This document shows positions 26,493-50,470 of a DNA stretch of 64,000 bases, one piece after another. How positions within the stretch are numbered: the stretch's first letter is position 1; the number at the start of each line of letters is the position of its first letter. The position numbers and the translations under genes are program-made. The stretch spans positions 67,084,001 to 67,148,000 of the forward strand of contig OZ241830.1 of assembly GCA_965202585.1 (NCBI GenBank), given 5' to 3'. The notes below the pieces were generated by a model. The model was not told the DNA's origin and did no database searches. It saw only the letters and a list, made by a program, of their open reading frames with translations. This DNA comes from Thalia democratica. Its lineage: Eukaryota.

Positions 26493-29400
26493 CCTCTGAT
26501 CCGTCTCTTCATACATCTTCTCTTTCATCTCCTCGTTCCTCACCTCGTTCATAAGTCTCCTCTACCGCTCCTCGCCGATTCGTTTCTCGAGCCGTTCGTG
26601 CGAAAGTGCAATTAGAATGTACGTCACTATTTGATATCAATTTTAAAAACAAGTTAAAACATTAAAAGATAAAAAAATTCAATTTACAAACTTATATGCT
26701 ACTAGTTAGCAACAACATTACATTAATCCATTAGTCTATTTTTATTTTAACTTTAAAGTTTCTTAAGTTTCAAAGTAAATGAGAAACATTTTTGGCTCCC
26801 ATCAATATACATTAATTCTCTACAAGTTTTAAAATAAAAAACATTTCACATTTTACACGAATTAGTTGACAAAACAAGCATTCACATGCGTCTCAAAAGT
26901 TTAAACTTGTTTTTGTAAAAATACAAAGCCAGTAAACTTGTACTGATTTTAAAAAACTTTCATATTAAAACAAATTTTAAACAAAGTTCTTTTTAGTTTT
27001 CAGATTTTAAATACCGGATAAGACATTTCATAGCTCGAATGACCTTGTTAAAAAATGTGTTTTTTTTTAAGTACGGTTAAATCTAAAACAACAAAAAACA
27101 TGCCAATAAAGTTTGTTACAAGCAATTAACAAGGTCATTGTAAAAAAAAACTTTAAATATTATAGTTTAAAGTTTGAACATAACATTGTTGCTAAATATA
27201 AAACTAAATTAAGTTTAATAAACTTAAGAAATTTCACTTCAATAACCGATTATGCACTCGAAAACAAGTTTTAATAACCTCATACAAATATTATTACAAG
27301 GACGAATGAAAAAACAACAATGTTTTTACATGCAGTTTAAAAAGTTTATTATCCCTTATAGTTCAAATTAAACGATTGTTCGAAAACAAAACAATTAAAC
27401 TTTACAGTTGCTAACTTTTATAGACGTTTAAAACTCTTTTTGTTATAAGAAAGTTTTATTATTAGAAGCCTTTAGTTTCATTTTAATTTTTAATAAAATG
27501 TTTAAAACGATTGAACGATATTTAATTAATTTGACAAAACGCGGAACAACTTGAAAACAAGACTAACTTTTGTTTAAACTTGCTCGTACAAGTTTAAAAC
27601 TCATTTTGAAAAACGCTTCAACAATGAATTGCAATAATATCTACACAACAAATACATTTTAGTTCTAACACATGTCCATTAGCTTTTCCCAAACCACTTT
27701 AACATAAAATTCAACACAATAAAGCTAATTACTTTTTGCAAAAAACAACACAAATCTCTCACAAACTCGAACTACTTAGTTGATTTTCCAACTAGAAATT
27801 TTAAACTCATTTTTAAAACTTTACAGACCAGATGACTGGGTTAAATAAATGCCCTTAAGTTTATCGAATTTATAATATTATTAAATAAGGTTTATTTTAC
27901 TCTGTTTTCAAGTCACCATCTACAAAACGTAAAAATTTTAATGAAGGTATCTGTGTTCAATTCCAGTTATAAATAACTGGACGTCCGGGTCACCATGTCG
28001 CTACCTGGTTAAAGATTCTACTTATATATACTATTTTTGGCCTGGTTTAATACGCAACGTGCGCTCCAACTTACAAAGTAGAAGTCCCCAAGATAACGCT
28101 TAAATTATAGTTGACTTAAATGAACTAATATGAATTACTTACTATTTACTAAATGTTTGATAAATCAGTTACTTATACTAATTTAAACTGAGTTCGAATT
28201 TGTGATCATGAATATATTTACAATGAATTTGCGAAACGAAAAGATGATAAAAAACTGCACAACATTACACTAGAATAACAGAAACTAAACACTACATGTT
28301 TAAACCAAACTCAAAAAACATTCTAAAATCGAAATCACTTCAACAAGATCGAAACCATTAAAACTTAAGTGCAGCAAAAAGCTGCACTGAGTTCAGGCCG
28401 TTCAATGAAGTAGAAACTAGAAAAACTGAACTGAACTAAACCAATTACGCGATATTCTTAATTTATACTTGCTTGAAAAAAAGAAGAAAGTAAAAAAGAG
28501 ACAATTACCGCTCACGCGGTACAGCTTCAAGAAGTAAACAACTCAGAAAAAACCCCTAATTAGAAACAACTCTAAACCGCTACCAAGCGGTTACAGTTCT
28601 AACCATTTTTTATTTTTGCATGTGGAATAAAGCTGACGAAAAGAAAATAACAAGTTTTGTTTTGCTAATTTTTTATATATATTAAAGAAAATAGATATTA
28701 AGTATACAAAAGAAAAAATCTAAACCAGGAACAATAACTTGCAGGTTGTGCTTAAAAGCAGCTTTATTAATGCTTGAATCTAGAACAAATTGCGACAGTT
28801 TTTAAGGAAAACAAAGAGACATGAGGCTTTAAACTTAAATTTATGCCAAAACTAACAGATGAACTAAGAGAATTCTAAAATAAAATGATAAACTTAATCA
28901 CACAGGTAAAGTTTACAAAAATAAGTTACAGCTTCCAAGATAAACTAGTAAATGATCTTATAATAAGTAAAACCGAAACCGGGAACGGGTCAGAAAAGCA
29001 CGGGTGACACTTTAGCACGGTGTGACACTTTAGCACGGGGTGACACTTTAGCACGGGTAGACACTTTAGCACGGAGTGACAATTTAGCACTAAATTGTGC
29101 CTAAATTGCATAATCATTTTATAATTAATAAATTTAATTGTAAACGTTTTATAAAATACAAATTTTACACGTATTTAATTAAATTATTTAAAACTATCGA
29201 TGGTGCTTAAGTGTCACTCCGTGCTTAAGAATCATTTTGTGCAAAAGAATCAATCAGTGATAAAGTTACACTCCGTGTTAAAGTGTCACCCCGTGCTAAA
29301 GAGACACTCCGTGCTAAAGTGTCACCCCGTGCTAAAGTGACGCCGTGCTAAAGTGTCACCCCGTGCTAAAGTGTCACTAAAGGTGTTTTTAAATTTTTTT

Positions 29401-32227
29401 CTAGTACTCGGCTGTACTAAAACAGTATTCCGCATGTTTTTAGAATAATTTTTTTTTTGATTCTAAAATTTTTTTGTTATAAGTATTTTGTATTTGTAAC
29501 TTTGATATTTTCACTAAGAGACAGCTTTTCAGCAGTGAAATTTAAGATATAAAATCAGTTTAGCAGATTGAAAGTAAAGAGACAGCTTTTCAGCAGTTGT
29601 AGAAAATTAAGAAAATGAATAAATATAATCAGTTTAGCAGATTGTAAGTAAAGAGACAGCTTTCCAGCATTTAGTAAAAGTGCAGAAGGCTGTGTCTTTG
29701 TTAAACTTTGTTTTATCTTTGAGATCAAATTTAAATTTGTTACATGAAACAAATTAAGAGGTAGAGCGAAGAAATTTAAACGTGAAATAGAGGTAAAAGA
29801 AACAAAACAACTCATCTTAATAGAAAAAATTAGAATTAGCAATAGATGAGCTAAATCAAGAAACCGGAAAAGAAATTTTTTTCAAACTATTTAAGAGTCA
29901 TTAGTAAACAAGTAAAAGTTATTAAAATGGCTTTACCAGGTGGTCAAAGGATTAATACAAGACATAAAATCTCGAGTTGCTTCATATGACGAACTACAAT
30001 TAGCTGTAGCAAGAGAAAAGCGAAAATTGAATCCTTGCGCACGTCTTCAAATCGATGTTACCGAAAATCTCGTCAATAAATGGAATGGAAGAGAAGTCTT
30101 TAACACTGCAAATGTGTTTGAAGGTTAGATAAGCTAACAGCATAATAACATTTTAAACAGTTTAGTTGTTAGTTCTTCAATAACTTCTTAAAATTTTACC
30201 TATATTTAAAGGCAACGATGAACAATCTGAAACATTCTAAAATAAATATACTTTCAAAAGCTCCGTGTCAAAAATAAATGATGAACCAGACCATTTTAAA
30301 GCTGATATTATCAAAGAACTGTGGAGTAAATTTTATTTTTGCTGCAGGCCTAATTGAAATCACAGAATATGAAAAAGATTTAATAAGATATTGCTGCAAA
30401 ACAGTACTGTTCCACGAAAGTGAACCATGGTCGAAAAAGCATAACAATCTTCGATGTACCGATGGGAAGCATCCATGGCGCAGAAATTCGCGAACTGGTT
30501 GGCTTATATACCTTAAATAAATTAAAGTAGGAAAAGATCTTTAGTGATGTTATCTTTGGCATATAGTGTGATGATGGTCTAGCAGTGGTGGACATTCAAC
30601 CGGGACCAAGTATGAAGAGTATAGTAATAAAAAAACAGTTGGTCAATGAGAAGTGGTTCCATATTGATGCTTTTGAAACAAAATTACAACTGTGGACATT
30701 AGGGTGCATCTGTTGCCTCGACCTTAGAGTTAAGCTTAGTCTAGCTTTTTGTGCGTGACAAATCACTTTAAAAAAAAAAAACCTTCCTATAACCTAATAA
30801 AAACACATAACGTAGAAGGAAAAATTCAAAAATTTATCAAAAAATTTTAAAAGGTCTGTTAAAATATTGTTTTTAGGTATACGGCTATACTAAAATAATT
30901 TCCCGCATGCTTTTCACAATAAAATAGTTTTTATTCAAAAATTTTCTTGTTATAAGAATTTTTCTATTTTTATACTTTGATATCTTTACTAAGAAACAGC
31001 TTTTCAGCAGTTGTAGAAAATTAAGAAATTGAAGATATAAAATCAGTTTAGCAGATTGTAAGTAAAGAGACAGTTTTTCAGCATTTGGTAAAGGTGCAGA
31101 AGGTTGTTAAACGAGTTTTTCTTTAACATGTACTTTAAATTAAACTTGTTACAAGAAACAAATTAGCAATTATAAGCGAAATACAAATAAGATATAAGAG
31201 AATAAATTCAAACGCGAAACAGAGGTTAAAGAAACAAGACTTATCTTGGCAGAAAAAATTAGAATTAGCAATAGCTAAGCTAAATCAAGAAACCGGATAA
31301 GAAAAGGTGTGAATTATTTAAAAGTCATTAGTAAACAAGTAAAAGTTATTAAAATGGCCTTACCAGGTGATCAAAGGATTAACACAAGACATATAATTTC
31401 GTTTTGCTTCATATGACGGACGACAATTAGCTGTAGCAAGAGAAAAGCTGAGATTTAATCCGTGCGCATGTCTTCACATTGATGTTACTGGAAATCTAAT
31501 CAATTAAAGGAATGGAAGAAAAGAAGTCTTTAACACTGCAAGTGTGATGAAGGTTAGATAAGCTAATAGCATAATTATTATTTTAAACAGCTTAGTTGTA
31601 AGTTCTTCCACAACTACTTGAAATTTTACCTATGTTTATAAGCAACGATGAACGATCTGAAACATACTAAAAATAAGTTTACTTTTAAGAGCTGCGTGTC
31701 AAAAATAAATGATAAACATTTTAAAGCTGATATTACCAAAGAACTGTGGAGTAAATTTTATGATTCTACAATGACAAAGGTAAAAACTGAGAAACAACTG
31801 GATAGAAGTCATAAAATGAAAAAGTGCTTAAATTAGTTAAGCATAAATTTTGTTTTTTTATTTCATGTCATTCGTAGTATAATACAAAAATATTTTTAAA
31901 TGTCGTTTAGTCGGCCATAACAGCAATAGCCATTATCGTAATAATCAAAACACATCTTTCTTAATCTAAAATGCAGTTAGACCAAAGAAGCGGAAAGTCA
32001 ATAGGGTGACCTAATTTACTTTCGCCCCCTTCGTTGGTCAAACATATGGGCTAAAGAATGAAATTGAATGAAAACTCCTTTAATTTTGCTTCTAATTTTT
32101 AAAGTTTAAAAATAATTTACTTTTAAATGCTGCGTGTCAAAAAAAAAAAGATGAATCAGACCATTTTAAGCTGATATTATCAAAAAACTGTGTAGTAAAT
32201 TTTATGATTCTACAATGAAAAAGGTAA

Positions 32228-33251
32228 CCCCAGCCTGATGATACAAAATATGCTGCTATTTTAAAACTGACATTAGTCGAAAGGAACAAAACACAGATGC
32301 AAAGATTCTAGAGAGAGAAGCAGATTTAACAAAAAGGATAGTGAGTTTCAAAAGATGCACTAAAACAATGGGTCCAAAAGAGAAGCATGATTTGGAGGAG
32401 GATTTGAAAAAAGACATTGTAAAATATAACAAAGAAGTTGACGAGGTCAATAAAGAGAGGATGAAATTACATCCTATAGTCAAGAGTAATTTTTTAACAA
32501 AATGGCAAACAGGATTAGATAAGAAATGGAAAAATGCTCAGGAAGAAATAAGAAAAAAGCAGAGTTAGTAAGTAAGTATGAAAATGATATTATACCTGCC
32601 GAGGATGGTAAGGACTATGTTGATATCCCTTCTTGAGTGCAGGTCCCAGTCTTGTCTCTGATATTAGGAGCAGGATAGAAACCCTATCTACATCAAGCCA
32701 ACAATCTCAGCAAGTTGCTGTGCGTAAGCAATTGACTCTAGAACAATTCAAAGAATACCATAAAAGGGTTAGCGATGATATGTCAATGATCGAATATAAA
32801 GGAGACATCACTATGTCTGATGTTGAATTCTACTCTTACGATAGACTTCTAGTGTTTCAGAGGATTTGGGAGAGGGCCAAAAGCAGGGAAATCATAGTTA
32901 GCTTAGATGACAAAACTTTTGGCACAGACGTTTTCATTTGGCTCGTTCGAGGAACAAACTTTGAAAGAATCAAGAGAGGCCTAAGCGACAAGACTAAAAA
33001 TTGCTTGAATACTCTGATCAGGAGGTACGGCTTTAAGGGTCGTTCGATTAACCAAGAAACCAAGACGATGGAACGTCTGCAAAATGATGATCTAACAGTT
33101 TCTCGTTTCTGTGACATTTATCCCATGAGAGTGTGGGCCGTGTGGAATAATCCCAAGTTGACAGAAAGACCAGACTTCTTAACATTTACTCATCTCACTA
33201 AGGCTGAAAAAAAATTTATCAGAAATTTTAGGTGTCCCTCGTTGCCTTACC
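32228..33251 (+). pseudogene. Endogenous viral element: phenuivirus-like (Bunyavirales) nucleocapsid, N-terminal and central part
   Basis: VEFYSYDRLLVF..WLVRGTNFERIKRGLSDKTKNCLNTLIRRYGFKG..NDDLTVSRF aligns to phlebovirus N EFAYQGFDARRV..ALTRGNKPRRMMMKMSKEGKATVEALINKYKLKE..RDELTLSRV. An upstream charged helical extension is readable through frameshifts. GC is higher than the flanks; no introns. Confidence 0.8.
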
Positions 33252-33881
33252 CTACCCCCAGAGCAAGCAAGAACAGGTGTAGAAGAAATTGTTTGAGAAT
33301 AAAGAGATATTTGAATACATAAAAAAAAAAGAGATACATCAAGAAAATGTAAATATTACATACTTACTAATACTTAGTACTGTACAGTTTTATAACTTTT
33401 ATACAAACAGTTATATGAACCAACCGTTGGTAATTGGTGATATGGTGAGTGTACGTATTAATAAAGTGATATTATGTCATTTGTTTTCAAAAATGAATTA
33501 AGATTTGTTAGAAGTCTCAAATGGTAAAATGTTTGACAGTTGTTTTTTTTTTGCAATATTTTATACATTTATCTCTTTTTGTTTAATTAAATGTTTAATA
33601 TTATAATCATTTTAGTTTCATCTTTTTCATAATTACAAAAAACCTTACTTATGTCACTAGGAAATGATGAAGGATCTAAAAAATTTTCCTAAAAACCCAG
33701 CAATCACCCTCCCTTGGTAATTGCTGAGGTGGTGAGTGTACGTATTAATAAAGTGATGTTACGTCATTTATTTTCAAAAATAAATGAAGATTTGTTAGAA
33801 GTTTCAAATGGAATGAAAGAGAAGTCTTTAACACTGCAAGTGTGTTTAAAGGTTAGATAAGTTATATAGTGTATATAGAAA

Positions 33882-34260
33882 TATCTTACTAAGGAAATTA
33901 GAATGTTATGGTGTGAGAGGAAAAATGCATCTACAAATCAGTTCATATCTATATGAAAGGAAACAGTTCGTCAGCTTTAGAGGATATGAATCAACCTGTG
34001 AAACAAGTTAAGTTGGGGTACCACAAGGCTCAGTATTAGGACCGTTGTTATTTCCTAATACACATAAACGACTTACAAAATAATACTAGTCTTAAAGTCC
34101 TCAACTTTGCAGATGATACAATGTTATACAAGACATTCACGAAAGACACATTACATACCTAAATAACAGTAAAAACTTTAACACAAAACTAAAAAAGGTA
34201 TAACATTGGCTTATGGGAAACAAACTTAAACTAAACCTTAATAAAACCAGAATATTGATA
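33882..34260 (+). mobile_element. CR1/L2-type LINE reverse transcriptase fragment
   Basis: ILLRKLECYGVRG..SSYLYERKQFV..GVPQGSVLGPLLF/LIHINDL..NFADDTMLY. Confidence 0.92.
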
Positions 34261-34639
34261 AGAAGTCCTTAATATGCAACTTGTAGTATATCCAGTTTTA
34301 AAGATAATTTCATCAGAGCAAGAAAATTAATCACAGGCAATTTAAAACGCTTCTCGAAAATTCAGACTCAGACTATACCGATATTTATAAAACATACAGC
34401 TGTACGCTGGTTGAGTTTAGGAAAATCTATTCAAAACCAGGAAAAATTTCAATTATCTAATGTTAAAAATTAGAAAATCTAAAGTAACAGTTAATACAAA
34501 CAAATATATTGCTTTTGACTAAACTTGCCAACTAAGTAAGTTAGTTGGCAAAGACAGCTTCTTAAGACATAAGTTTTCTAACTCAAGTATTCCATCTGAG
34601 TCATTTTTAAGCTTGTGGTTTAAGCTTGATTTTAGTCTT

Positions 34640-35050
34640 TGAAAAAATATTATGCAAATTATCAAAATGAAGAAGTTTTCAACAACATCAAAGGCTTATA
34701 CCAAAATGCATTAAACAAAAGTTATTTCAAATATAATTTAACTCCAAACAATTTAACAGTACCAATATTAAAAAATATGAAAAAAAAATTGCATTTAGTA
34801 TTACCTCCAACCCCTTTTGTACATCTGTACAGACCAAAATTGGCAAGCGTTTCCCAGAATTGATAGATAGACTTTTTAAGAAGGACAGCTTTTACCACAA
34901 AATAATTAACAGAAATTGCATAAAAATACCATATTGCTGCACACCAAACGTTATGGCCATTATAAATTAACACAACAAAAAGCTTATGAAGAAATCAGAT
35001 AAAAACGAAAAACTTTGCAATTGTAGATCAAAAACAAACTGCTCCGTGGA
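34640..35050 (+). mobile_element. PLE fragment (thumb/linker into GIY-YIG region)
   Basis: YQNALNKSYFKYNL..TKIGKRF..INRN..YCCTPNVMAII..HNKKL..CNCRSKTNC. Second copy at ~41380-41650. Confidence 0.8.
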
Positions 35051-36479
35051 TATTTCTATTTGAATAAGAATTGGAAATGTTTGTTTTTAATAAACGAAAG
35101 ATCTTTTCGAAGTGTTTGTAAAAAACTGAGACTGATTTTTGAATGGATCTAACCATTTTTTATCTTTGCCATGTGGAATAAAGCTTACAAAAAAAGATTA
35201 ACAAGTTTTGTTTTGCTAATTTCTAATATATATTAAAGAAAATAGATATTAATTTATACAAAAGAAAAAATCTAAACCAGGAACAATAACATGCAGGTTG
35301 TGCTTAAAAGCAGCTTTATTGATACTTGAATCTGGTACAAATTGCGACAGTTTTTGAGGAAAACAAAGAGACAAGGCTTTGAATATACATTTATGCCAGA
35401 ACTAACAGACGAACTAAGAGAATTCTAATATAAAATGATAAACTTAATCAAACAGGTAAAATTTACAAAAAAAAAGTTACAGCTTCCAAGATAAACTAGT
35501 AAATGATCTTATAATAAGTAAAACCGAAACCATAACCTGCTGACAAAACAAAAAATTATTACAAAGTTCCAAAATAAGAATTTAAGAACCTATAACTAAA
35601 ATCTTTAATAAAAGCATATAAAATGAGTGGTAACAGAAGACAATAATGGGAATTTTAAACTATTTGTTTGTTCCATCTATTTTATTTATTTTAAGCTTTT
35701 TGAAAAAAACCGTAAATGTTGTAAAAGTTAAAAAAAGTTCTAAAGTTTTAATAAAACAAATTATAGTAAGTTTGAATTGAAAGACGAAAAGCATAATGAG
35801 TGCAGTGTTTTTAATTCTAGTAACCCACATAATACATCTAAAGCGATTATAAATAAATACTTAGGTATTAAATCTATCAAAATAAGAAAAATTGGAAGAT
35901 TAAAAAAACTATATATTGGTTAGCAAGTTAGTTAGTAGTACCGAATTAAAAAGAACTTAGATCATGGATTAAAAGCCATCAGTGCTGTAGAAAAAGCATA
36001 GTGTGTATGTAGTTTACCAATCTAAACAACTCACGTTGGACTAAAAGAATTAAGATAATATTGAGCATAAAGTCTGATTCAGCAGAGGATATCAGTTTGG
36101 CTACAACTGCACCAAAAACTTACTTAAAATGGTTTTGGATTGTAGTTTTTTCATTATTTTAATTCAACGAAATTGTTTACATGCGAAATCATATAGTATT
36201 TTTTTGATATCATTTCAGGAAAGTGAACCATGTATAGTGATCGGCAGTTTTAATCTAAAGACGAACACTGAAATATAGCACTATGACTTTTTTTCAATAA
36301 AACCACCAAGAAAATGACATTTTCAGTAAACACAGATATTTTTTCTTAAAAACATAAAAATCAGAAAAACTACAAATGCAATGTAAATCAAGGAATAAAT
36401 TTTATTTTAATTGTCGATCAAATATGACCTTGCAAAAATTAGTTTAGAAACGTGTGTAACAATTGTTCATGACACCAAC

Positions 36480-36730
36480 ATATTGCATGTTTAGCAGTAT
36501 GCATGACAAATAACTGGAAAGCATGGTGAAGCACTAGCATTAGCTAAAAATTATTGCGGAATAAGTAAGGACGAAATCGACATAGTAGTTCACTGCTGCA
36601 AATTATTCCTTATTTACAGCGATTGTGCGTGGTCGAAGAAGGATATGGATGGCAATTTTGATACACTGCAGGAAAGTTTTCATGGTGCAGAAGTATGCGA
36701 ACTAGTAGGGTTACTTATACTCAATCAAGA
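36480..36730 (+). mobile_element. PLE RT fragment (different subfamily)
   Basis: ALALAKNYCGISKDEIDIVVHCCK..WSKKDMDGNFD..SFHGAEVCELVGLLIL. Confidence 0.8.
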
Positions 36731-37434
36731 AATAAAAGATTATATAAATCAAGAAACCGGATAAGAAAATGTGTAATACTATTTAAAAGTCATTAGTAAA
36801 CAAGTAAAAGTTATTAAAATGGCTTTACCAGGTGGTCAAAGGATTAATACAAGACATATAATTTCGTGTTCTTTCATACGACGAACGACAATTAGCTGTA
36901 GCAAGAGAAAAGCTGAGATTGAATCCGTGCGCATGTCTTCACACCGATGTTACCGGAAATCTTGTCATTAAATGGAATGGAAGAGAAGTCTTTAACACTG
37001 CAAGTGTGTTTAATGGTCAGTTAGGATATTTTTATTAGCACAATTAATATTTTAAACAGTCTAGTTGATAGTACTTTTATAACTACCTATGTTTAAAGGC
37101 AACAATGAACGATCTGAAACATACTAAAAATAAATTTACTTTTAAGAGCTGCGTGTCAAAAATAAATGATAAACCATTTTAAAGCTGATATTACCAAATA
37201 ATTGAGGAGTAAATTTTATTATTCTACAATGAAAAAGGTAAAAACTGCGAAATATCTGGATAGAAGTCATAAAATGTAAAACTTCTTAGATTATTTAAGT
37301 ATCAATTTCGTTTTATTTTTTCAGGTTATTTGTAATATAACACAAAAATATTTTTTAAATGTTGTTTAGTCGGCCATAACAGCAATAGCCATTATCGTAA
37401 AAATCACACAATATCTCTCTAAATCTAAAATGCA

Positions 37435-39479: not shown

Positions 39480-40030
39480 AGTGACCTTGATCTTACTGGT
39501 GCAGATGCTTTTATAACGATATAGGACCACAAAAAACACTTCCCTTTTAACACTGAGTGTAGAGTCTTAAACCCAGAAAAAAATGAGTTTGGCCGCATTA
39601 GTAAGATCATTCTAGAAAAAGCGGTCAGAAATATAAGACCAAAAATGCCCCTAGTACAACTGAAAAACTCTCTAGATGTAATAACATGGTTTAAAAAAAA
39701 ATTGAAGAGAAAAATAAAAAAATATTTTATAACATTTGACATTGTAAACTTCTATCTGAGTATTAAACATCATAACCAAATAAAAGCCATAAACTTTACA
39801 AAGAAGTATACAGAAATAGAAGATAAGGACATTAAGTTAATTGAACACACATGCAAAACAATTTTAACCTATGACAATAAAAATGATGAAAATGCATCAT
39901 TCGATGTACCGATGGGCTCTTTTTTCGGCGCTGAGCTCTGAGACCTTGTGGGACTATACTTCCTACACCGCCTTAAATATATTTATAACGAGATCAGCTG
40001 ATACAGAGATGACGGCTTCGCAATTGTAGA
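39480..40030 (+). mobile_element. PLE RT fragment
   Basis: VITWF..FITFDIVNFYLSI..IEHTCKTIL..FDVPMGSFFGAEL*DLVGL..YRDDGFAIV. Confidence 0.9.
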
Positions 40031-42829
40031 CGAAAAATAGTCGAATATATTTCTTTAATAGTAGATGAAACAACGTCTATTTGTATAAATCACAAGCAGT
40101 TTAAAACTTTAGAGTTAAAAAAGCTACATGATAGAATTATGAACACATTTTAAAGAAATAAGCTGACAATGGATGTTGAAAATATAAAAATGACAAAGAA
40201 AATATTCAAAGTTGTAAAAGGACTCATCAGAGTTTAAACAAAGACATCAAGAACTCAAGGATTGTTTCAGTTTTAAAGTCAACCAAAAAAACTATTTTAA
40301 GCTTTTTATTGTGAATAAATTTTAAAATGAATTGGCATCACTTGGTAAAAAAGATGAAAACGAAAAAAAAAACGTTATTTAAAAGATGTGGTACTTAAAT
40401 ATTAATAAAACCTTTTATTATTTCGTCATACTTCAAAGTTTAACGTCTTATCAACTTTAGTTTAAATAATCACCATAATCTCTCTCTCTTTATTTGGATA
40501 TATATAAAAACTTTGATTTTAAATTATTTTGGGAGGTGACAAAAAGAGCGCATAAAATAGCACATGGTAATAACCCTGTTTGTAGGTTGTACTTTTAAGA
40601 ATCAACAACCGCTATGTATGCATTAAAAAAGGAAGGTTGTTTAAATAAGAGGAGCGAATTCATATCGTCTTGTCGACATATGAAAAAGCTCCTCTTAAAA
40701 TAAAATAAATTTTGAAGTATTTAACTGTTGTCTTAGTGAATTTCAGTTGTTTTATTAGTTAGATGGAAGATTGATTTTTGTACTGAATTTTTGTAACGCT
40801 TAATATTACGTCATACTGTTTTTTGTTTTTTTGCATAACTTTTACATCTTTGTTTAGTACAGTGCTTTTTATTTTGAATTTAACTGGCTTATGATTAGAG
40901 CTTTATGAAAAATTAAAGCATTATGAAACATATGTACCAGTAATTTTAAAATCGTACTTTTTCAATAAATTATTTAAAAGCCTTTCAAGTGAGCTCTGTA
41001 GGAGGTGTTCAACTTTGAACAATAACCTTACTTTACATCGGTTAGCCAATATTCATCTAGGAAATTAGTTATTATACCTTTGGTCAAGTTTGTTTTTTTT
41101 TAGTACAAAGTAATTCTGCTGTTTAAAATGAACTAAAATCCATAACAAATAGAGCTTCTTATATGAGTACTAAAGAGAGATGATGAAAAAGAATCAGTAT
41201 TTTTTTGATGGTAGAAATTAGAAAAAAAAGTTTCATTAGACATATTACATTGTGGCAGACCATCAAACAGCTTATTAGATTGAGATGTTGATTTCTTGTG
41301 TGAAAAACTGCTGTGGATGAAGACAAAAGCAAGAAACAATGTTTAGATATTTTGTTAAATGCTGAGTTTCTACTGAAATAAAGTTGTTTTTTAATCAATC
41401 TATTTAGAAGATCTTCTGCATAAGAATAAAATGCTAGAGTGACAGCATTTACCACAAAATAATTAACAGAAATCGTATAAAAATATCATATTGCTGCACA
41501 CCAAACGTTATGGCCCTTAAAAATTCACACAACAAAAAGCTTATGAAGAAATCAGATAAAAACGAAAAACTTTGCAACTGTAGATCAAAAACAAACTGTC
41601 TCGTGGATATTAAGTGTTGCCTAAATAACGTCATATATCAAGCTAATGTTTCCAAGTTTAGCAATTGTGATTAATGTTCAATGTATTAAATCAATTGAAG
41701 TAAAGATAATGGAGATTAAAATAGATAGTATATCGTAAGCTTCGGCAAAGATATTAGTTATTTCACCTTTAATTGAACATTTATTTTAATATCTAAGTAA
41801 TTCTGCTGTTAATAACGAACTAAAATCCATACGAATAGAACTTATTAGATAAGTACTAATGAGCGATGATGATTTGTTGGTCAAACATATGGGCTAAAGA
41901 ATGAAATTGCATCATTTCTTAAAAGTAAAAATTTATGTTTTCGAAAATTAAAACTGGATATCTAATTTAACAATTCTGATAGATCTCACATCGCATCTGA
42001 ACAAACTAAACTTAATATAAAAAGTAAAAAAATAGTTGGTCAATGAGATGTGGTTCCATATTGATGCTTTTGAAACAAAATTACAACTCTGGACATTAGG
42101 GTGCATATGTTGCCTCGACCTTGAAGTTAAGCTTAGTCTAGCTTTTTGTGGTGACAAATCACTTAAAAAACATAAAATTAGCATTTTATAACCTAATTAA
42201 AACACATAATGTTGAAGGCAAGATACCAAAAGTCGAAGAAAACAAGCGTTCTTTTCAATTTAAGATAAAGAAAAATTCTCCAATAAAATCGTAAACAGAG
42301 TCATAAACCTAAGTAAATCACCCTTCATCAAATACTCAAGAAACTTAATAAACAAAATTAATTGTACAATACGAAAACATTCTAAATTAAACCAATGGAA
42401 AAATACAGACGAAGTGATCACCTAGTTCGAATATTCAAAATTTAACAAAAACTACAGATTCATAAAATTCGATACTACCAAGTTTTACCCAAGTATAACT
42501 AAAAATAATTTAAGCATTCACTGAAAAATTTTACCAAATAACAGACTAAGAAATGAATCTAATAATACACTCTTGTATAGCAATTTTAACACATAAAACC
42601 AAACCTAGGAAAAACAAGTTCAAATCAGTTACTAAAAGTAAGTATGGGACCATTTGACGGTACAGAAATCTGCGAAGGAAAATCTTAAAATCAAAATTAA
42701 TAAGATTCACAGATCGTACAGGAATCTAACCAAATGTAAAATAGACAAGCAATGAAGTCTTGAAAGCGCTAAACAGTCATCTTTAAATGTAATTAATGCT
42801 AACGGATAATGGGGATGTCAATACAAAAT

Positions 42830-43450
42830 ATAGTTATTATTGTTAGTAAATAATAGAAAACAATTTATAGGTAGTCTTAAATATCTTAAAACAAACTTTA
42901 GAAATTTTTTAAGTAAAACTTTATAGGAAAGACCAAACCAAGAAGTCGTCATGGCTCGAGTGACTGTAACTCTAAGAAAAAGAATTAAATTTGGATGATG
43001 AACAGAGCACAATACCAAAGAAGAGTAAAAGAAAATTTGGTCAAGGTGAAGCATTTTACCAAATGAAAGTCAAAGTAAGAAGTTAATTTGTTAAACTTAA
43101 AACTTAAATTTTTTCTTATTTGTTTCTGAACAGGCTTTGCTTGCAATTTTAAAAGATAAAGTAATACAGGCTATTACCGTTAGTAATGTTACTTTAGGTA
43201 ATGTATCACCAATTTCATAGAATGAAGATGAAATAAGTATAGAAGAGGTAGACATAAAAAGTGGTAAAATAGAATGTATGCCTGAATATAATGATGATAT
43301 TTTTGTACATAATGATGAAAAGTCTGACCCGAATAATTCATATTTAATTATTTGTACTGGGATTTCATCCAAAGAAAACCTTAAAATAAGTAAACTTACT
43401 CCACCACAAGCTTTAAAACATATAGTTTCTGACAATTACACAATATAGTT
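42830..43450 (+). pseudogene. Intron-containing gene fragment of unknown identity
   Basis: ..GEAFYQMKVK|ALLAILKDK.. joined by a 59-nt GT-AG intron (43075-43133, gtaaga..tgaacag); internal stops on both sides. Confidence 0.45.
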
Positions 43451-44079
43451 GTTAGCTTTAATTTTGAATATAAAGTTGTTTTAAGGTAGATTCTTATAGT
43501 ATAAAATCAGTTGTAGATGAAACTTGTAAATTTATTCATGAATTAAACTCTAAGAATTTTTTCATATTATTTAAATTTCCAAATGAACTCATAAAAACTA
43601 AAAAAATTAACAAGCTCAAGATGAGGTAGGTTTTTGAAATAATCGAAGACATTTTAATCCCGATATGACAAAGTAAGGATTCTATTACTTACCAAAAAAT
43701 TATGTACTCATTTAATAGCATTACAGATATCTCATACAATGGTGAATGTCCATCTAACTGTTTCTGTCTTAAGCCAAAATTCATTAAAAAAATTAAAAAA
43801 GTTTTGAATGAAAACATATATAGGCCAAATCAGCTTACTATGAGTTTAATGATCTATTAAAAACCAGGAAAAATTTCAATTATCTAATGCTCAAAGTTAG
43901 AAAATCTAAAGAAGTAACAGTTAATACAAACAAATATATTGCTTTTGACCAATTTTGACAACTGACTAAGTTTGTTGGCAAATACAGCTTCTTAAGACCC
44001 AAGTATCTGAGGAAAAAAGTAATTTACCCTTTTTAGTTATTAGATCAAATATCAGTAGAATTGGATTACTTGATTTACA

Positions 44080-45459
44080 ATGTCACTATCAAGAGAGAGT
44101 TTCGCATTATGCGGTGTTGACGGCGTGGTCTACCAAGGATCCCTCAATACAGGAATGTGCAAGGAAAAACCTGATATGCCCAAAGAGTATTTTGATGCTC
44201 ACAAAAGCAAGCCAGTGATTCCAGTCTATACTATAAATGAGACTGATGATAATCTGAGAAACCTATTTAAGAAGATCAGAAATAGTATCGGCAAAGCTAA
44301 CAAGGAACTCAAGTCTGTGTCAGCTTTTATGTGGTACTTTATGGGTAAGATTGAGTCTACGTTGAAGAAGTCTTGGGTTGCCAACGGTCAATTGATAGGG
44401 AGTGAGGGACAAGTGATAACTCCAAAGTCTTTAATAAGTCCTGATCAAAAGATTTTGGAAATAGGTGTCGAGAGCGGAGTGGAAGTTTCAGAGGAGCAGG
44501 CATGGCAGTTATTCTGGGCACTCGTCGGAGCTTACAGACTCGCTTCTCTCAAGGGTAAGAGCGATTACTATGTAAAGGCAGTACAAACCAGAGTGATAGG
44601 ACATTTTAGGCTGTCTCCTTTTGAGGCGAGTGTTGGAGATACGACTCCCTTGACAATGGCTCCAATGTTAGATAAGTTAGAGTACACTGGGTTGATAGCG
44701 AGCCTCAACATGTTTTTCAATCGTTTCAGCGATCATGAGTTTGCCAGTTGCGGACTAGGCACATTATCTTCTAGATATAGAAACTGCGCCACCTTAACCA
44801 GTCTGATATCCTTCGCTTATCAAGTCAATAGAAAGTTTACAGAAGTGTTTGAACACTTTCCGTTTATGGAATTGGTTCCAGAACTTAGAAGACTTACTGA
44901 TCCTAATGAACAGGACGAGCCGGACTCGTATTCTCCGTACATAAAGGACTTCGGAATTTGCAAGGTATCTCCGTATTCATCAACTGCCAATCCTCTCATG
45001 TACACCCTGCTGCACATCACTGGCACTGCTCTAGGTCACGAGAGATCCATGAGAGCCGTAAGAGTCGGAGATGTGTCCAAAGACACATTATTGAGAATGG
45101 GGTGTATAGCTGCTATGTGCCTGAGAAATTATTCAGGTTATGAAATGATCGCTGCTAGCAATACAGAGCTTATGGAAGAAAGGAAAGCCGGTAGAAGAAG
45201 TGCAGAAGAGTATGCAACTGGACCTGAGCTTCTTAAGTATGATAGAGCTATAGCAGCTGGAACAAAGATTCCCCCAAGTTGGAAGCCTTGGTTTAGAACC
45301 GGGACTGGTTGGGATGTCTTGGAAATGCTCAGACACTCTGATGGGTTGTTTGACAGTTTCAGGAAGATGATAAAAGCCAAGATTTCATATTCCGAGATGA
45401 GACAGAATTCAATTGGCAAAATGGTACAAGAATATGTCACTGCTCCGGACTTGAGTTGA
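44080..45459 (+). CDS. N: Endogenous rhabdovirus nucleoprotein, intact 459-aa ORF
   Basis: NMFFNRFSDHEFASCGLGTLSSRYRNCATL..DSYSPYIKDFGICKVSPYSSTANP..RSMRA matches VSV N DMFFHMFKKHECASFRYGTIVSRFKDCAAL..DSYMPYLIDFGLSSKSPYSSVKNP..RARNA. Also AYRL vs LYRV. Length typical of rhabdoviral N; intronless; GC clearly higher than the flanks. Confidence 0.95.
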   Translation: MSLSRESFALCGVDGVVYQGSLNTGMCKEKPDMPKEYFDAHKSKPVIPVYTINETDDNLRNLFKKIRNSIGKANKELKSVSAFMWYFMGKIESTLKKSWVANGQLIGSEGQVITPKSLISPDQKILEIGVESGVEVSEEQAWQLFWALVGAYRLASLKGKSDYYVKAVQTRVIGHFRLSPFEASVGDTTPLTMAPMLDKLEYTGLIASLNMFFNRFSDHEFASCGLGTLSSRYRNCATLTSLISFAYQVNRKFTEVFEHFPFMELVPELRRLTDPNEQDEPDSYSPYIKDFGICKVSPYSSTANPLMYTLLHITGTALGHERSMRAVRVGDVSKDTLLRMGCIAAMCLRNYSGYEMIAASNTELMEERKAGRRSAEEYATGPELLKYDRAIAAGTKIPPSWKPWFRTGTGWDVLEMLRHSDGLFDSFRKMIKAKISYSEMRQNSIGKMVQEYVTAPDLS

Positions 45460-45491
45460 TCATAGGTTTAAGTTATAAGTTTGACCGTTCA

Positions 45492-45504
45492 CTAGAAAAA
45501 AAAA
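45492..45504 (+). terminator. Rhabdovirus-type gene-end/polyadenylation signal (CTAG-A9)
   Basis: ctagaaaaaaaaa lies 33 nt after the N stop codon and resembles the TATG(A7)/TAG(A7) transcription stop signals of Rhabdoviridae. Host AT-rich sequence follows immediately. Confidence 0.65.
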
Positions 45505-46144
45505 TATATTTTTTTTTTTGATAGAATTAGTTTGTATATTGAGGGTCCGATTGTTTATTCTACGGATTTCACCTTTTTTTTCTTACTGAGCAATTATGTA
45601 ATCGTTTAATTGTCAACAAGTTAGTCATAGTAACAATAGAATGTTATAAGCAAAAATAAAACACAAACAGTAATCTAGTTGGTCCTAGTAACAACAGAAT
45701 ATTATAATGAAAAATAAAAATAAACACTAATCAAACTAATATAAATGTGAAATTTAGCCTCATACTATTTATATTCTATACAAGATTATTATTTTATTCA
45801 AGCTATGATAACTTAAAAATTTCATCATAGCTATGTTTATTTTTAGAATTTGTTTAAAATCAAAAATGCCCAACAAATTTATAGAGTTCATTATTGAAGT
45901 TAAAGAAAAATTTCCAGAAGATATTTCAATAAATGATTTTGAAAAATTATTGTTAAAACTTAATGAATTTTATATTTTTATAAAAAAAAATTTAAAATGT
46001 TGAAAATATACTTGATTTAGATTTTTCTAAAGATTATTTATTTTTCTCTCACAGGGAATCAACAAATAGTTCACCTAGTACACATGGTGATCTTGACTCA
46101 GGTCCATCAAAATTGGTTAAGAAAGGATTGGTACCAAATCTACT

Positions 46145-46747
46145 AGAGGATCTGGGAGAGGGCAAAAAGCAAGGAAATCATAGTTAGCCTAGATGACAAA
46201 ACTTTTGGCACAGACGTTAATGACATCGTTTTCATTTGGCTCGTTCGAGGAACAAACTTTGAAAGAATCAAGAGAGGCCTAAGCGACAAGACTAAAAATC
46301 GCTTGAATACTCTGATCAGTAGGTACGGCTTTAAGGGTCGTTCGATCAACCAAGAAACTAAGGCGATGGAACGTCTGCAAAATGATGATCTTACAGTTTC
46401 TCGTTTCTATGATATTTATCCCATGAGAGTGTGGGCCGTGTGGAATAATCCCAAGTTGACAGAAAGACCAGACTTCTTAACATTTACTCATCTCACTAAG
46501 GCTGAAAAAGAATTTATCAGAAATTTTAGGTGTCCCTCATTGCCTTACCTTCAAAACAAAGGATGACGGTTCAAAAGACATCTCAGATTTTCGCAACATT
46601 CTTGTGACTCATGCTATTGTTCTGACTGATTTTGATCGACTAATGTTCTCATGGGTTAGGAAGAGAGAAAATATGCCTGATGAATTTAAACCTAGAATTG
46701 AGTTTATTCAGCAAATCATCAAGAAAAAGGCTAATAGAAGTCTTTAA
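46145..46747 (+). pseudogene. Endogenous phenuivirus-like nucleocapsid, central and C-terminal part
   Basis: About 400 bp near-identical to 32860-33251. After one frameshift it continues FKTKDDGSKDISDFRNILVTHAIVLTDFDRLMFSWVRK..KKKANRSL*, comparable to phlebovirus ILDAHSLYLLQFSRVIN. Confidence 0.8.
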
Positions 46748-47849
46748 TCAGCAATAGATGAGCTAAATCAAGAAACCGGATAAGAAAATATGTAAAACTA
46801 TTTAAAAGTCATTAGTAAACAGGTATGAGTTATTAAAATGGTTTTAAGAGGTGGTTAAAAGAGTAATACAAGACATAAAATTTCGTGTTGTTTCATATGA
46901 CGAACGACAATTAGCTGTAGCAAGGGAAAAGATAAAATTAAATCCTTGCGCACGTCTTTACATCGGTGTTACCGGAAATCTCGTCAATAAATGGAATGGA
47001 AGAGAAGTCTTTAACACTGCAAGTGTGTTCAAATGTTAGATAAGCTAATAGCATATTTAATTTTCTGGAAGTTTAGTTTTAGGCTCTTCGACAATTACTT
47101 GAAATACTACCTATGTTTATAAACAACAATGAACGATCTGAAACATACTAAAAATAAACTTACTTTTAGGAGCTACATATCAAAAATAAATGATAAACCA
47201 GACCATTTTAAAGCTGATATTACCAAAGAATTGTTGAGTAAACTTTATGATTCTACAATGAAAAAGGTAAAAACTGGAGTCATAAATGTAAAACTGCAAG
47301 ATAACTGGATAGGAGTCATAATATGTAAAATGCTTAAATCGTTAAGTATCAATTTTGTTTTATCTTTTCAGGTTATTTGTAGTATAAAACAAAAAAAAAT
47401 TCTAATTGTTGTTTTGTCGGCCACAGGGACGTAGCTAGCTCAAAAAAGTTACGAGTCTGCAAAAATTAAAACATCTGAAATAACGCGTGATAACGACCTA
47501 GCAGGAACACAGCAATTTAAACTACCTCTAATGTTATTAAATTTAATCTGAAAATATGCAGTTATGTTAATACATCAAAAATGGAATGTGGAAGTACGAG
47601 TGATAACTGTAAGGCAATTTAGTGAGATCAAAGAAGCGGAAAGTCAAAACGGTGACCTAATTTAATTTTCCCCCTTCGTTAGTCAAGTCATGATTTAATG
47701 TTATCACGAATATATGGGCTAAAGAATGAAATAGCATCATTTCTTAGAAGTAAAAATATAAAAATATACGTTTACGAAAATTAAAACTGGATATCTAATT
47801 TAACAATTCTGATAGATTTTGTATCGCATCTGAACAAAATTAACTTGTT

Positions 47850-48170
47850 ATAGCAGACGAGACAACTGATATTAGTGTCCAAAATCAGCTGTCAATCGTT
47901 TTAAAATACATACACTAAGAAAATGTTGTTGAGAGATTCTGATTAAGGCAATTTTCAAAATCCAGTTGCTAGAATTAGAAAGTCAATCATAACAGACCAT
48001 GAGTCTGTAAATCTCTCTGCTGCTGCAAAAGAGGTTTGCGACAGTGTACATCTAAATGTTGCAGAAAGGTTTAAGTTTTCTGGCCAAGAACTGTATATTT
48101 TAAGTAGGACAAAAAAAAATAATTTAGGAGTAGCTTTAAATATCAGAATAATTTTGTATAGCCTAGGATA
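47850..48170 (+). mobile_element. hAT (ZMYM1/DUF4371-like) transposase fragments
   Basis: DETTDISVQNQLSIVLKYI..VVERF, then ..EVCDSVHLNVAERFKFSG. A related LIVDETTS fragment lies at ~40060. Confidence 0.7.
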
Positions 48171-48899
48171 ATTATGCCTGAAAGACCAGTGTTTTTTTTT
48201 TTTTTGACAGATGGAAAACTTTAACACGTTTTTGAGTGCAAACACAATGAACACTTTTAAAAAATTAAAGTTGTAAAATTAAATAGTTATTTTAATTTTC
48301 TCTAAAAACTTTTACACTAATTGCAGAAACGTGCAGTCTGGACCCACTACTGCGTTCTATTGGACGAAATATATTTTGTGAAAGATGCTAAAGAACAATT
48401 CGAGATTATCACTGCTAACTAGAGACCAACTACTTCGTACTGTATGACAAATCTGGTTTTGCAAAAAAAAAGATAAAGAGTTAAAGATAATAACGTACCA
48501 ACTATCACGTACGTACGTTAGCGACCACATGAGTGCCAGCATTCAAGTACCCATTTGCTACGCCAAGCTGTTGGCACTCGGATCCAGGCAGTATTAAAAC
48601 GGAGAAAACCTAAATCAAATAGGTTTTGCTTGACTTAAATTTTTATGGAGTTGTGATCATAACTAGAGGAAAAGCAAATTGAGGTAAATCAGTAGCTCGG
48701 CAAGATATAGCAGTTAATTTATTTTTGCAGTGGGTGTTTTGTTATGTATACACAAAATCATTAAATGCGGTCAAGGCAAAACTTGAATCTATTTGTAAGT
48801 CTTCAAAACATTAGCAACATTTTCTTACAAGAAGAGAGGTGAAATGTATTATACAAAACCAAATGTGTTTTGAGAATCAATCTCTTTTCGACATCATAG

Positions 48900-50470
48900 T
48901 AAATAAAAACCAATGTGAAATACTTGTAAACTGGTATATGAAGATTTTAAATTTCATGAAAAGATGGCATAGGATGTTGCTCATCATTTGTCCATAGAAA
49001 GTGAAAAACATTAAATGAAAAAAAATTAACTTCACAGATCCAGATAACAGAAGGCTGATGAATGGTGATTGCAAATATTTCAAGTTCCAATTGAATTCAC
49101 TAGTGATGCTGAGATATAAAAAGAAAAAGATAGAGTATATTTTATCCAATTGAAAAGTTTAGATCAAAATGAACAGCTTCAAAAAAGTACACTTTTGCTG
49201 TAACTGATAGATTGCTTATTGATGATATGCCTTTGAAGTATAGAAATATACGGCTTGGAAAACGAAAAGTCCCCCCAGAAACCTACCAAGTTGTTCAAAA
49301 GCTTAAATCAATGCTTCACACATCTTAAGCTAAAAGATCGATTGCTGAAATTGCAAACACTGATCTTAGAAGAAATAAATTTGGTTCTTGGTAAGTTTAC
49401 AAACCTGACAAACCATATTATATGAACACTTTGCCAGCATCTTCTAAAAGTGACATACTAGATCCATACGGAGAAGCCATGGTTCTTTGCTTAAAATTTC
49501 CTCCGGCCAAGAAGAGTCTCTTCCTCAAGTATATTGTTTGCTTACCGGTTTCTGTGTGTGAGAAATGTTTTATAGAAAACCTAAAAACGGTTAGTAATAA
49601 CTGTCTCCGCCAAATCTTGTATCATAACAATGCAAGATGGAGGATGTTTCTGGACTTGAAAGTTCTTGGTAATTATGATACAGCCGCATACCAGACAGAA
49701 ATACCTTCTTATTTTAACACCTTCGGCGTTAGACGTGAAAGGACAATGGATCCAAGATTTCTGAGATGTATAGACGATTCTATTAGCCACATACTGACTA
49801 GGAAAGTGAGGAGCGTCGGTTGGCGGTACTCCAAAGCGCATGGGAATAGGGATAGGCAAAACTCAAGAGACACAGAATGGTTTGCACTGGCGCACATGAT
49901 GGGTGAACAAATCTACAAGAGACGTTTGTCTGATCATGAGTTGGATTGTTTGTCAAGCTATTCAGGGGTATGACACTTTTTGTCTTATCAGGTTAAGCTA
50001 TCTTGAGCAAGCAATAGATAACCTGTTGTAAGTTCTGGAATAGTATTGGGTTACAAGGGAGGGAAAAGAATTTAATGTTTGCTAACATCTTGTCCAATGA
50101 TTGAATTTTAGATTGTGCACTGATCAGAGTAAATTTGACCAGTAACAAGCCTATGATTGGATAGTATACGCGGTGAATAATTTAGTCAAACAGCTTTCTC
50201 TGAATAATCATCCTGGTTTATCCTCATGACTTACCTCTGTTTGTTGAGAAAGAGATTGAATCTCTATCACAAGTTTATATCTATGACAGGAGAACCAAGT
50301 TCATGTGAAAACATGGTATTCTTAGTGGTTATCGTTGAACTGCTCTCCTGGATCCTATTATTAACCGCGCTGCTACGCGGTGGGTTTTTGACAGACTGGT
50401 AGCTCTGGTTTGTTATGAGGTTTACCAAGGTGATGATGCTTCGGTACCATTCAAATGGAAAACTTAAACA
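48900..50470 (+). pseudogene. Endogenous toti-like dsRNA virus RdRp (decayed)
   Basis: Motifs occur in the correct order: WRMFLDLKVLGNY, motif A DQSKFDQ (50122-50142), motif B GILSGYR*TALLDPIIN (from 50315), motif C YQGDD (50423-50437). Several stops and frameshifts; the 5' boundary is uncertain. Confidence 0.85.

What the first reader, a model, noticed from the sequence alone, without database searches (positions are those of the whole stretch)
28600..50470. Candidate antiviral memory locus: three unrelated RNA-virus EVEs archived in one TE-fragment array
Seen: within 18 kb lie a rhabdovirus N (Mononegavirales), a phenui-like N (Bunyavirales, two pieces) and a toti-like RdRp (dsRNA virus). 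They decay to different degrees (intact; few frameshifts; many stops), which suggests separate acquisitions at different times into the same locus. Known: these viruses have no DNA stage, so integration needs host retroelement RT. In Aedes mosquitoes such non-retroviral EVEs concentrate in piRNA clusters and can yield antiviral piRNAs. Inference: this is an equivalent, sequentially loaded locus in a probable cnidarian, embedded in Penelope/hAT/CR1 debris rather than LTR elements. I know of no description of this but cannot search.
Basis: partly seen in the sequence, partly recalled or inferred. Interest (0 to 1): 0.95.

Follow-up and report, generated by a model that had tools for sequence, protein, structure and literature searches.

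The report
One-way archive of RNA-virus fragments
An animal genome, probably Hydra, holds pieces of three unrelated RNA viruses packed among transposon scraps that all face the same way, the layout of the small-RNA "memory" loci of mosquitoes, but no small RNAs from it have been shown yet.

Summary
Within 18.2 kb lie an intact full-length rhabdovirus-type N (44080-45459), two overlapping phenui-like N copies (32242-33251, 46145-46746) and a broken toti-like RdRp (49500-50446). Short-read contigs bridge four EVE-flank junctions, two only narrowly. New here: every EVE and every oriented TE piece (Penelope, hAT, CR1) lies on the + strand. The 24-kb array is purine-skewed in 24 of 24 one-kb tiles. 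Flanks of 12 of 12 other EVE places tested in the genome lean the same way relative to their EVE (10 of 10 independent, p=0.001). That is the anatomy of uni-strand piRNA clusters read antisense to their cargo, as in Aedes. Corrections: this is not the only archive (at least 13 other EVE regions), although only it combines three virus groups. The phenui pieces are overlapping copies, not halves. The array also grew by copying its own modules. No RNA or small-RNA data could be tested, so piRNA output (about 0.6) and antiviral effect (about 0.25) remain inferred. The main rival is co-orientation produced by reverse-transcriptase template switching and local duplication, without function. Verdict: new variant of a known kind.

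The parts
27000..51000 (+). Co-oriented array of TE fragments, local modules and EVEs (candidate uni-strand piRNA cluster; predicted transcript on the - strand)
   Evidence: Purine fraction 0.547 on +, also 0.547 with EVEs removed; 24 of 24 one-kb tiles above 0.5, against a longest run of 9 in 200 upstream tiles. TE protein hits 4 of 4 on +.
32242..33251 (+). Phenui-like nucleoprotein EVE, copy 1 (N-terminal and middle part; broken between about 32565 and 32624; 3'-truncated)
   Evidence: ORF 32242-32565 matches the N-terminal part of the C5 copy (E=4e-9); family alignment; 5' junction narrowly bridged in X1 and X3.
44080..45459 (+). Intact full-length rhabdovirus-type nucleoprotein EVE; 5' junction near 44040; A-tract about 35 nt after the stop, resembling a gene-end/poly(A) signal
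   Evidence: Both junctions bridged with 0 differences in X1 and X2. Homology to the old paralog stops at 44039. A-tract comparison with L047.
46145..46746 (+). Phenui-like nucleoprotein EVE, copy 2 (middle to C-terminal part; one frame change near 46550)
   Evidence: Tenui_N E=2.5e-5; 93.6% to copy 1 over 405 nt; 8 synonymous against 6 non-synonymous codon differences.
49500..50446 (+). Toti-like (RdRP_4) polymerase EVE, two frame changes and several stops, ends just after motif C
   Evidence: paralog at G000:C6:67.007 Mb; 3' junction narrowly bridged in X1 and X2.
33850..34204 (+). CR1/L2-type reverse transcriptase fragment
   Evidence: phmmer E=2e-29 to an upstream RT ORF; the family label rests on recalled motifs.
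34728..35048 (+). Penelope-like C-terminal fragment (second copy 41435-41641)
   Evidence: phmmer E=1e-17 and 7e-10; the Penelope label rests on recalled motifs.
37813..38290 (+). Fragment of a dispersed Penelope-like family (related pieces at 39504-39971 and 42228-42509)
   Evidence: About 40 dispersed genomic copies at 80-88% (40 of 360 candidates scored); RVT_1 E=0.013 on 39525-39938.
38627..39037 (+). hAT-type transposase fragment (other hAT-like pieces at 31969, 37370, 39081, 47665)
   Evidence: phmmer E=9e-11 to P0003/P0004.
46746..47423 (+). Module Y: unidentified, nearly locus-specific repeat; other copies at 29834, 31263, 32107, 33806, 36734; abuts both phenui copies
   Evidence: 11 of 18 genomic matches lie in or near this locus, 5 at C6:71.4-71.6 Mb, 2 elsewhere; no family found.
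48448..48594 (+). Weak Argonaute/Piwi-domain C-terminal fragment, co-oriented with the rest
   Evidence: Pfam Piwi E=0.001; a related copy in L028 hits the same part of the profile, E=0.003; both below the cut-off.
45543..46140 (+). Piece of a dispersed repeat between the rhabdo N and phenui copy 2 (strand unknown; no family found)
   Evidence: About 40 copies at 79-88% (40 of 95 candidates scored).

Best explanation
The stretch is a uni-strand piRNA-cluster-type trap. Viral mRNAs and TE RNAs were reverse-transcribed by host non-LTR (Penelope/CR1-type) enzymes and entered the locus at different times (integration shown; enzyme inferred). The locus also grew by copying its own modules (shown). 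All cargo faces one way (shown), so a long - strand transcript would be antisense to every TE and virus piece and could be cut into primary piRNAs (inferred). Its certain-looking targets are dispersed TE families; the EVEs would add guides against cognate rhabdo-, phenui- and toti-like viruses. Whether those guides protect is a separate, weaker claim (about 0.25). The locus is one of a set of such co-oriented EVE sites in the genome.
For: Co-orientation in the array: 4 of 4 EVEs, 4 of 4 external-library TE hits, 36 of 36 phmmer rows with array-derived queries, self-hits included, and purine skew in 24 of 24 tiles; upstream TE hits are mixed, 2 on + and 3 on -. Genome-wide: flanks of 12 of 12 other EVE places are purine-rich on the EVE's sense strand at three exclusion distances, 10 of 10 independent places, p=0.001; TE hits in those flanks (8 of 19 loci scanned, 5 independent places) all share the EVE's strand. 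Different ages: toti piece shared with an old paralog, rhabdo and phenui pieces absent from it. Three virus groups in 18 kb. Cargo includes pieces of dispersed TE families. Precedent: Aedes EVE loci are unidirectional and give antisense piRNAs (10.1101/127498; 10.1101/2022.08.22.504762); Hydra and Nematostella piRNA clusters are mostly one-stranded (PMC3592418; PMC5731801).
Against: No transcription or piRNA evidence was obtained. Most EVEs of the genome lie elsewhere. Several flank skews are barely above 0.5 (0.50-0.52), flanks are only 0.5-2.6 kb and may hold unrecognised viral sequence, and three of the TE queries came from those flanks. The direct-versus-inverted repeat test did not separate the array from controls (6 of 10 control windows also had direct matches only). 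Poly(A) signals are not depleted on the - strand beyond composition (32 observed, 29.5 expected). Local module copying inflates the count of co-oriented pieces. The 10.1101/127498 authors explain EVE-TE co-polarity by copy-choice recombination, a mechanism that needs no selection. PMC6085071 found no abundant small RNAs from 17 RNA-virus-like contigs in a sea anemone.
Confidence: 0.6

Rival explanations
1. Mechanical co-orientation without function: a non-LTR reverse transcriptase switches templates between RNAs (always giving same-sense chimeras) and the products, plus tandem duplications, pile up in a gene-poor, satellite-rich region. No piRNA role.
For: EVE ends join local modules (Y at both phenui copies, a duplicated ~90-nt module at the toti 3' end). 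The C7 EVE sits between ~175-nt direct repeats. The region is full of tandem and inverted duplications.
Against: Pieces of very different age share one strand over 24 kb. A later insertion into an existing array has no reason to match its strand unless it is targeted or selected. hAT (DNA transposon) pieces follow the same rule.
Confidence: 0.2
2. The array lies inside a long minus-strand transcription unit (intron or lncRNA) where sense-oriented inserts are purged; the EVEs are neutral passengers.
For: Antisense bias of TEs inside genes is known in other animals (recalled). No flanking gene could be checked beyond the window's right end.
Against: The bias here is complete, not partial; no host exons were seen in the array; no depletion of minus-strand poly(A) signals.
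Confidence: 0.12
3. The intact rhabdovirus N is kept for its protein (interference with the cognate virus), and the rest is junk.
For: Full-length, stop-free ORF from its own start codon. A translated antiviral EVE is reported in Aedes albopictus (PMC13643977, search listing only).
Against: Intactness is equally explained by youth; no ortholog was available for a selection test; the copy differs from both relatives at a few positions where they agree.
Confidence: 0.06
4. Assembly chimera or contamination with viral sequence.
For: The region is repeat-rich and X1/X2 may be the source sample.
Against: Short-read contigs bridge four junctions, and a run from another study carries the phenui copy 1 with its flank and 23 differences. 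The EVEs are decayed, and one has an old paralog.
Confidence: 0.02

Closest known systems
EVE-rich uni-strand (core) piRNA clusters of Aedes aegypti and Ae. albopictus (10.1101/127498; 10.1101/2022.08.22.504762; PMC7522710)
   Same: EVEs of several virus families interleaved with TE fragments in one orientation; rhabdovirus-derived pieces; loading over time.
   Different: Neighbours here are Penelope-like, hAT and CR1 pieces and locus-specific modules, not dense Ty3/gypsy or Pao-Bel LTR elements. The array is about 24 kb against more than 50 kb for some Aedes loci. The host is probably a cnidarian. piRNAs and protection are not shown.
piRNA-producing EVEs outside arthropods (PMC6085071: dog-whelk rhabdo-like N; anemone and starfish parvo-like contigs)
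   Same: A rhabdovirus N-only EVE; a cnidarian example of antisense 5'-U small RNAs from an endogenous virus.
   Different: That work had small RNAs but, in the passages read, no genomic locus; its cnidarian case is a DNA virus. Here the locus anatomy and three RNA-virus groups are seen, without small RNAs.
Hydra and Nematostella piRNA clusters (PMC3592418; PMC7161359; PMC5731801)
   Same: Mostly one-stranded clusters supplying antisense guides to TEs, if the host is Hydra.
   Different: The passages searched mention no viral content ('virus' and 'viral' occur 0 times in all three main texts); whether this locus is among the published clusters could not be checked.
Rhabdovirus from a Hydra transcriptome (PMC5014481)
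   Same: Shows a divergent rhabdovirus associated with Hydra, a candidate relative of the donor.
   Different: Reported as a six-gene virus contig; its sequence was not compared here.

Membership tests
Non-retroviral endogenous viral element | RNA-virus homology embedded in host chromosomal DNA with supported junctions | tested here: met
   On an 81-Mb contig; four junctions bridged, two narrowly; homology.
Rhabdovirus-type nucleoprotein | Rhabdo_ncap domain above the curated cut-off, full length | tested here: met
   152.5 bits against 26; end-to-end with P0002.
Phenuiviridae-type nucleoprotein | Tenui_N domain above the curated cut-off | tested here: inconclusive
   Window piece 24.4 bits against 25; relative L021 28.5; weak PDB hits only to nucleoproteins. 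'Phenui-like' is safe; family rank is not fixed.
Toti-like RdRp (RdRP_4) | RdRP_4 profile and motifs A, B, C in order | tested here: met
   Own piece 20.8 bits against 22, but colinear tblastn E=1e-35 to proteins that pass the cut-off.
EVE-loaded uni-strand piRNA cluster (Aedes type) | EVEs of several virus families in one locus, beyond chance | tested here: met
   Three groups in 18.2 kb; about 1.5e-7 under uniform placement.
EVE-loaded uni-strand piRNA cluster (Aedes type) | EVEs and TE fragments share one orientation | tested here: met
EVE-loaded uni-strand piRNA cluster (Aedes type) | Long single-strand transcript antisense to the cargo | not testable with these tools
   No stranded RNA data could be laid on the locus.
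EVE-loaded uni-strand piRNA cluster (Aedes type) | Dense 25-31-nt 5'-U PIWI-bound RNAs from the locus | not testable with these tools
   No small-RNA data available; this is the defining feature, so membership is not claimed.
EVE-loaded uni-strand piRNA cluster (Aedes type) | LTR-retrotransposon-rich setting | tested here: inconclusive
   No LTR-element domain among 112 short ORFs scanned, but that scan was insensitive and the local library held no LTR proteins; pieces identified are Penelope-like, hAT and CR1.
EVE-loaded uni-strand piRNA cluster (Aedes type) | EVE limits the cognate virus | not testable with these tools
   Needs knockout and infection, as in PMC7522710 (abstract and outline read).

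The most novel reading that the evidence does not exclude
A cnidarian has a genome-wide network of one-way loci that actively take up RNA-virus sequence in cis: a non-LTR (Penelope-type) reverse transcriptase switches between a viral mRNA and RNA of the locus itself, the hybrid re-enters at the same locus by homology and so arrives in the right orientation with a copy of a local module beside it, and the locus yields antiviral piRNAs in PIWI-rich stem cells. That would be heritable, targeted antiviral memory predating bilaterians and independent of LTR elements.
Probability: 0.13. Interest if true: 0.88.

Novelty: new variant of a known kind. Interest (0 to 1): 0.62.

Why it matters
EVE-to-piRNA antiviral memory is established in mosquitoes, and it is open whether it is an insect speciality or an old animal defence. 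A defined locus in a probable Hydra, where PIWI-bound small-RNA libraries exist and stem cells of all lineages express PIWI (PMC7161359), makes the question testable with one mapping run. The co-orientation of all tested EVE sites gives a sharp prediction (minus-sense piRNAs at each). The EVEs also record rhabdo-, phenui- and toti-like viruses that infected this lineage, and point to non-LTR enzymes as the capture route.

Tried and rejected
Expression: no RNA holder listed; no evidence either way. Strain presence/absence: in X3 (another study) contig depth over the rhabdo N is 3.7-8.4 against 42-68 in the bins holding the toti and phenui copies. This hints that the rhabdo N is absent there, but no listed contig joins across the site, so it is not counted as evidence; one 5.6x contig matches 348 nt of it with unlike ends, unexplained. 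Direct-versus-inverted self-match count (36:0 in the array) did not discriminate, because 6 of 10 control windows also had only direct matches. Poly(A)-signal depletion on the - strand: none beyond composition. Target-site duplication at the rhabdo N: none of 8 nt or more; no clean empty site in the paralog or in the 40 scored candidates. Single-sequence fold of the rhabdo N was useless (pLDDT 34); no fold search run. Module Y stayed unidentified (atlas best 0.88, lead-level only; Pfam none). Close exogenous relatives with flanks: none in viral or metagenome contigs; one distant rhabdovirus contig at 26%. The toti N-terminal ORF found no hit in the word-based search. Genome scans for Bunya_RdRp, RdRP_4 and Parvo_NS1 profiles gave nothing, but nothing rang in controls either, and RdRP_4 missed the known copy, so these show no absence. 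Age polarity like a CRISPR array: not seen (oldest piece at the right end, intact piece between two phenui copies). Earlier scan notes: none found. Supplements of PMC3592418 (2 of 3 files searched) held no cluster table.
Full report
Setting. The window is G000:C6:67,084,001-67,148,000 of an 802-Mb, 1833-contig assembly. No call names the organism.

The three viruses are real. ORF 44080-45459 (+) is a stop-free 459-aa rhabdovirus-type N: Pfam Rhabdo_ncap E=2e-44, 12 of 12 PDB hits are nucleoproteins, and it aligns from start to stop with an unnamed 460-aa relative at 53% and with a partial one at 84-85%. An A-tract follows about 35 nt after the stop. It resembles the A7 gene-end signals of a distant rhabdovirus contig, which fits reverse transcription of a polyadenylated N mRNA (weak support; no target-site duplication found). 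The phenui-like N occurs twice, 32242-33251 and 46145-46746. The second piece scores just under the Tenui_N cut-off, a genomic relative passes it, and the family profile hits only nucleoproteins in the PDB, weakly. The two copies overlap by about 400 nt at 93.6%. Of 14 differing codons 8 are synonymous, more than the 21-28% expected under neutral change (p 0.004-0.02), so part of their divergence may have happened in the virus, meaning two captures; the number is small. The toti-like RdRp spans 49500-50446 in three frames with several stops (tblastn E=1e-35); 11 of the 13 scanned hits of its motif B/C piece pass the RdRP_4 cut-off (13 of 15 scanned).

They are integrated. Contigs of runs X1 and X2 bridge both rhabdo N junctions with no differences, and narrowly the phenui-1 5' and toti 3' junctions. 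X1 and X2 may be the source sample. X3, from another study, carries phenui copy 1 with its flank at 23 differences and 13 gaps.

They differ in age. A decayed paralog of the locus lies 72-90 kb upstream, colinear at 74-92%. It contains the toti piece but not the rhabdo or phenui pieces, and its homology stops at 44039, 40 nt before the rhabdo start codon. Toti piece and flank are equally diverged from the paralog (90-92% ungapped), as expected if insertion preceded duplication. Loss from the paralog cannot be excluded for the other two.

Everything faces one way. All four EVE pieces are on +. With an outside library of eight TE proteins, 4 of 4 hits in the array are on +, while upstream hits are 2 on + and 3 on -. 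With 14 array-derived queries, 36 of 36 rows in the array are on +, self-hits included. Without annotation: purine fraction is 0.547 over 27-51 kb, unchanged when EVEs are removed, against 0.488-0.518 in 102 overlapping 24-kb windows upstream; 24 of 24 one-kb tiles exceed 0.5, against a longest run of 9 among 200 upstream tiles. Against this: the direct-versus-inverted count did not beat its controls, and internal copying means the pieces are not all independent.

The array copies itself. Module Y occurs at least six times in the array at about 80-92% and hardly elsewhere: 11 of 18 genomic matches are in or near the locus, 5 at C6:71.4-71.6 Mb, 2 elsewhere. A hAT-Penelope junction occurs twice at 79%. 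EVE ends often meet such modules: Y precedes phenui copy 1 and follows copy 2, and the toti 3' end runs into a second copy of a ~90-nt module. Other cargo comes from dispersed families with about 40 or more copies. The left 5.4 kb of the array is part of a 22-kb unit triplicated at 98%.

The genome-wide picture. Rhabdo N, phenui N, toti RdRp, Mononegavirales L and one RdRP_1 EVE occur in at least 13 other regions (lower bounds). Only this locus has three groups together; about 1.5e-7 under uniform placement. For the 12 places whose flanks I held (N and toti hits; the L and RdRP_1 places and two near-identical C2 copies were not included), the flanks are purine-rich on the EVE's sense strand in 12 of 12, at 200, 500 and 700 nt exclusion; 10 of 10 after dropping two paralogs, p=0.001. 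TE hits were found in 8 of 19 loci scanned, 5 independent places, all on the EVE's strand. Caveats: short flanks, some values barely above 0.5, possible hidden viral sequence, and three queries drawn from these flanks. Larger contexts and the region right of the window could not be read.

How it most likely works. Shown: integration, different ages, one-way layout, local copying. Inferred: reverse transcription by host non-LTR enzymes; a minus-strand transcript antisense to all cargo; processing into primary piRNAs. Hydra has active somatic PIWI with antisense TE piRNAs from separate loci (PMC7161359, passages) and mostly one-stranded clusters (PMC3592418, passages); 402 of 457 Nematostella clusters are unistranded (PMC5731801, one passage); a review says the same for cnidarians (PMC9923473, passages). 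I put piRNA-cluster status at 0.6 and antiviral effect at about 0.25. The chief rival (0.2) is mechanical: template switching gives same-sense chimeras, the explanation offered for EVE-LTR co-polarity in Aedes (10.1101/127498, passages). It explains neighbours well but not a 24-kb block of mixed ages, unless re-entry is targeted, which is the bolder reading.

Comparison and novelty. The layout matches Aedes EVE-rich clusters (10.1101/127498; 10.1101/2022.08.22.504762, passages), where one EVE was shown to limit its virus (PMC7522710, abstract and outline). Outside arthropods, antisense 5'-U RNAs come from a rhabdo N EVE in a whelk and a parvo-like EVE in an anemone, while anemone RNA viruses gave no abundant small RNAs (PMC6085071, passages and one section). 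A rhabdovirus and orthomyxo-like segments are known from Hydra transcriptomes (PMC5014481, PMC10636315, passages). Nine searches aimed at Hydra or cnidarian EVEs and clusters (listings only, except where stated; 10.1101/2023.11.03.565523 passages) showed no description of an RNA-virus EVE cluster in Hydra. The library lacks most subscription papers, and preprint supplements and EVE catalogues in unseen supplements could hold these elements. It works like an Aedes EVE cluster in anatomy; it is not filed as a member because piRNA output, the defining feature, is untested. Verdict: new variant of a known kind, interest 0.62.

Noticed in passing
L002:1353-1526 and 2460-2634 (G000:C7, about 0.97 Mb): A rhabdo N EVE of about 0.9 kb sits exactly between two ~175-nt direct repeats (94% alike), far longer than a usual target-site duplication.
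   Followed up: partly
window 48448-48594; L028:830-980; third related copy near C6:66.962 Mb: Decayed pieces resembling the C-terminal end of an Argonaute/Piwi domain (Pfam E 0.001-0.004), co-oriented with the array; a host silencing-gene fragment inside a candidate piRNA locus.
   Followed up: partly
G000:C6:71.44 and 71.61 Mb (minus strand): Second site with module Y; at 71.61 Mb the same dispersed repeat and Y enclose about 520 nt that the phenui search did not hit, possibly another insert in the same slot.
   Followed up: no
window 4233-26277, with copies upstream: A 22-kb unit triplicated at 98%, plus an inverted partial copy; it carries a decayed NUDIX-domain ORF (18112-18624, E=4e-6), an unidentified 207-aa ORF (25292-25915, minus), a 42-nt GC-rich minisatellite and a ~1.5-kb satellite.
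   Followed up: partly
window 21857-23631 and 60172-61970: 1.8-kb inverted arms (85-88%) made largely of an 18-nt minisatellite enclose the whole array and 9 kb more; probably dispersed satellite, not tested as element ends.
   Followed up: no
G000:C1:23.095-23.098 Mb and C7:31.965-31.968 Mb: Long Mononegavirales L-gene EVEs with open frames of about 700 aa.
   Followed up: no
G000:C5:14.85 and 15.20 Mb: A phenui-like N and an RdRP_1-type EVE 350 kb apart, on opposite strands; a looser second mixed region.
   Followed up: no
L020:847-898 and 1727-1778: A short phenui-like EVE lies between 52-nt inverted arms (90%), as if carried inside a small DNA transposon.
   Followed up: no
L021:1162-2651 (G000:C8, 63.72 Mb, minus): A divergent (26%) phenui-like N with long open frames, a second phenui-like lineage in this genome.
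   Followed up: partly
G000:C6:66.90-66.96 Mb and 67.014-67.038 Mb: Large satellite blocks with units of about 1.5 kb, 397 nt and 170 nt, some inverted, upstream of the array; a heterochromatin-like setting.
   Followed up: no
window 28997-29378: A small element with inverted ends built from 18-nt repeats, the only inverted structure found at the array's left end.
   Followed up: no
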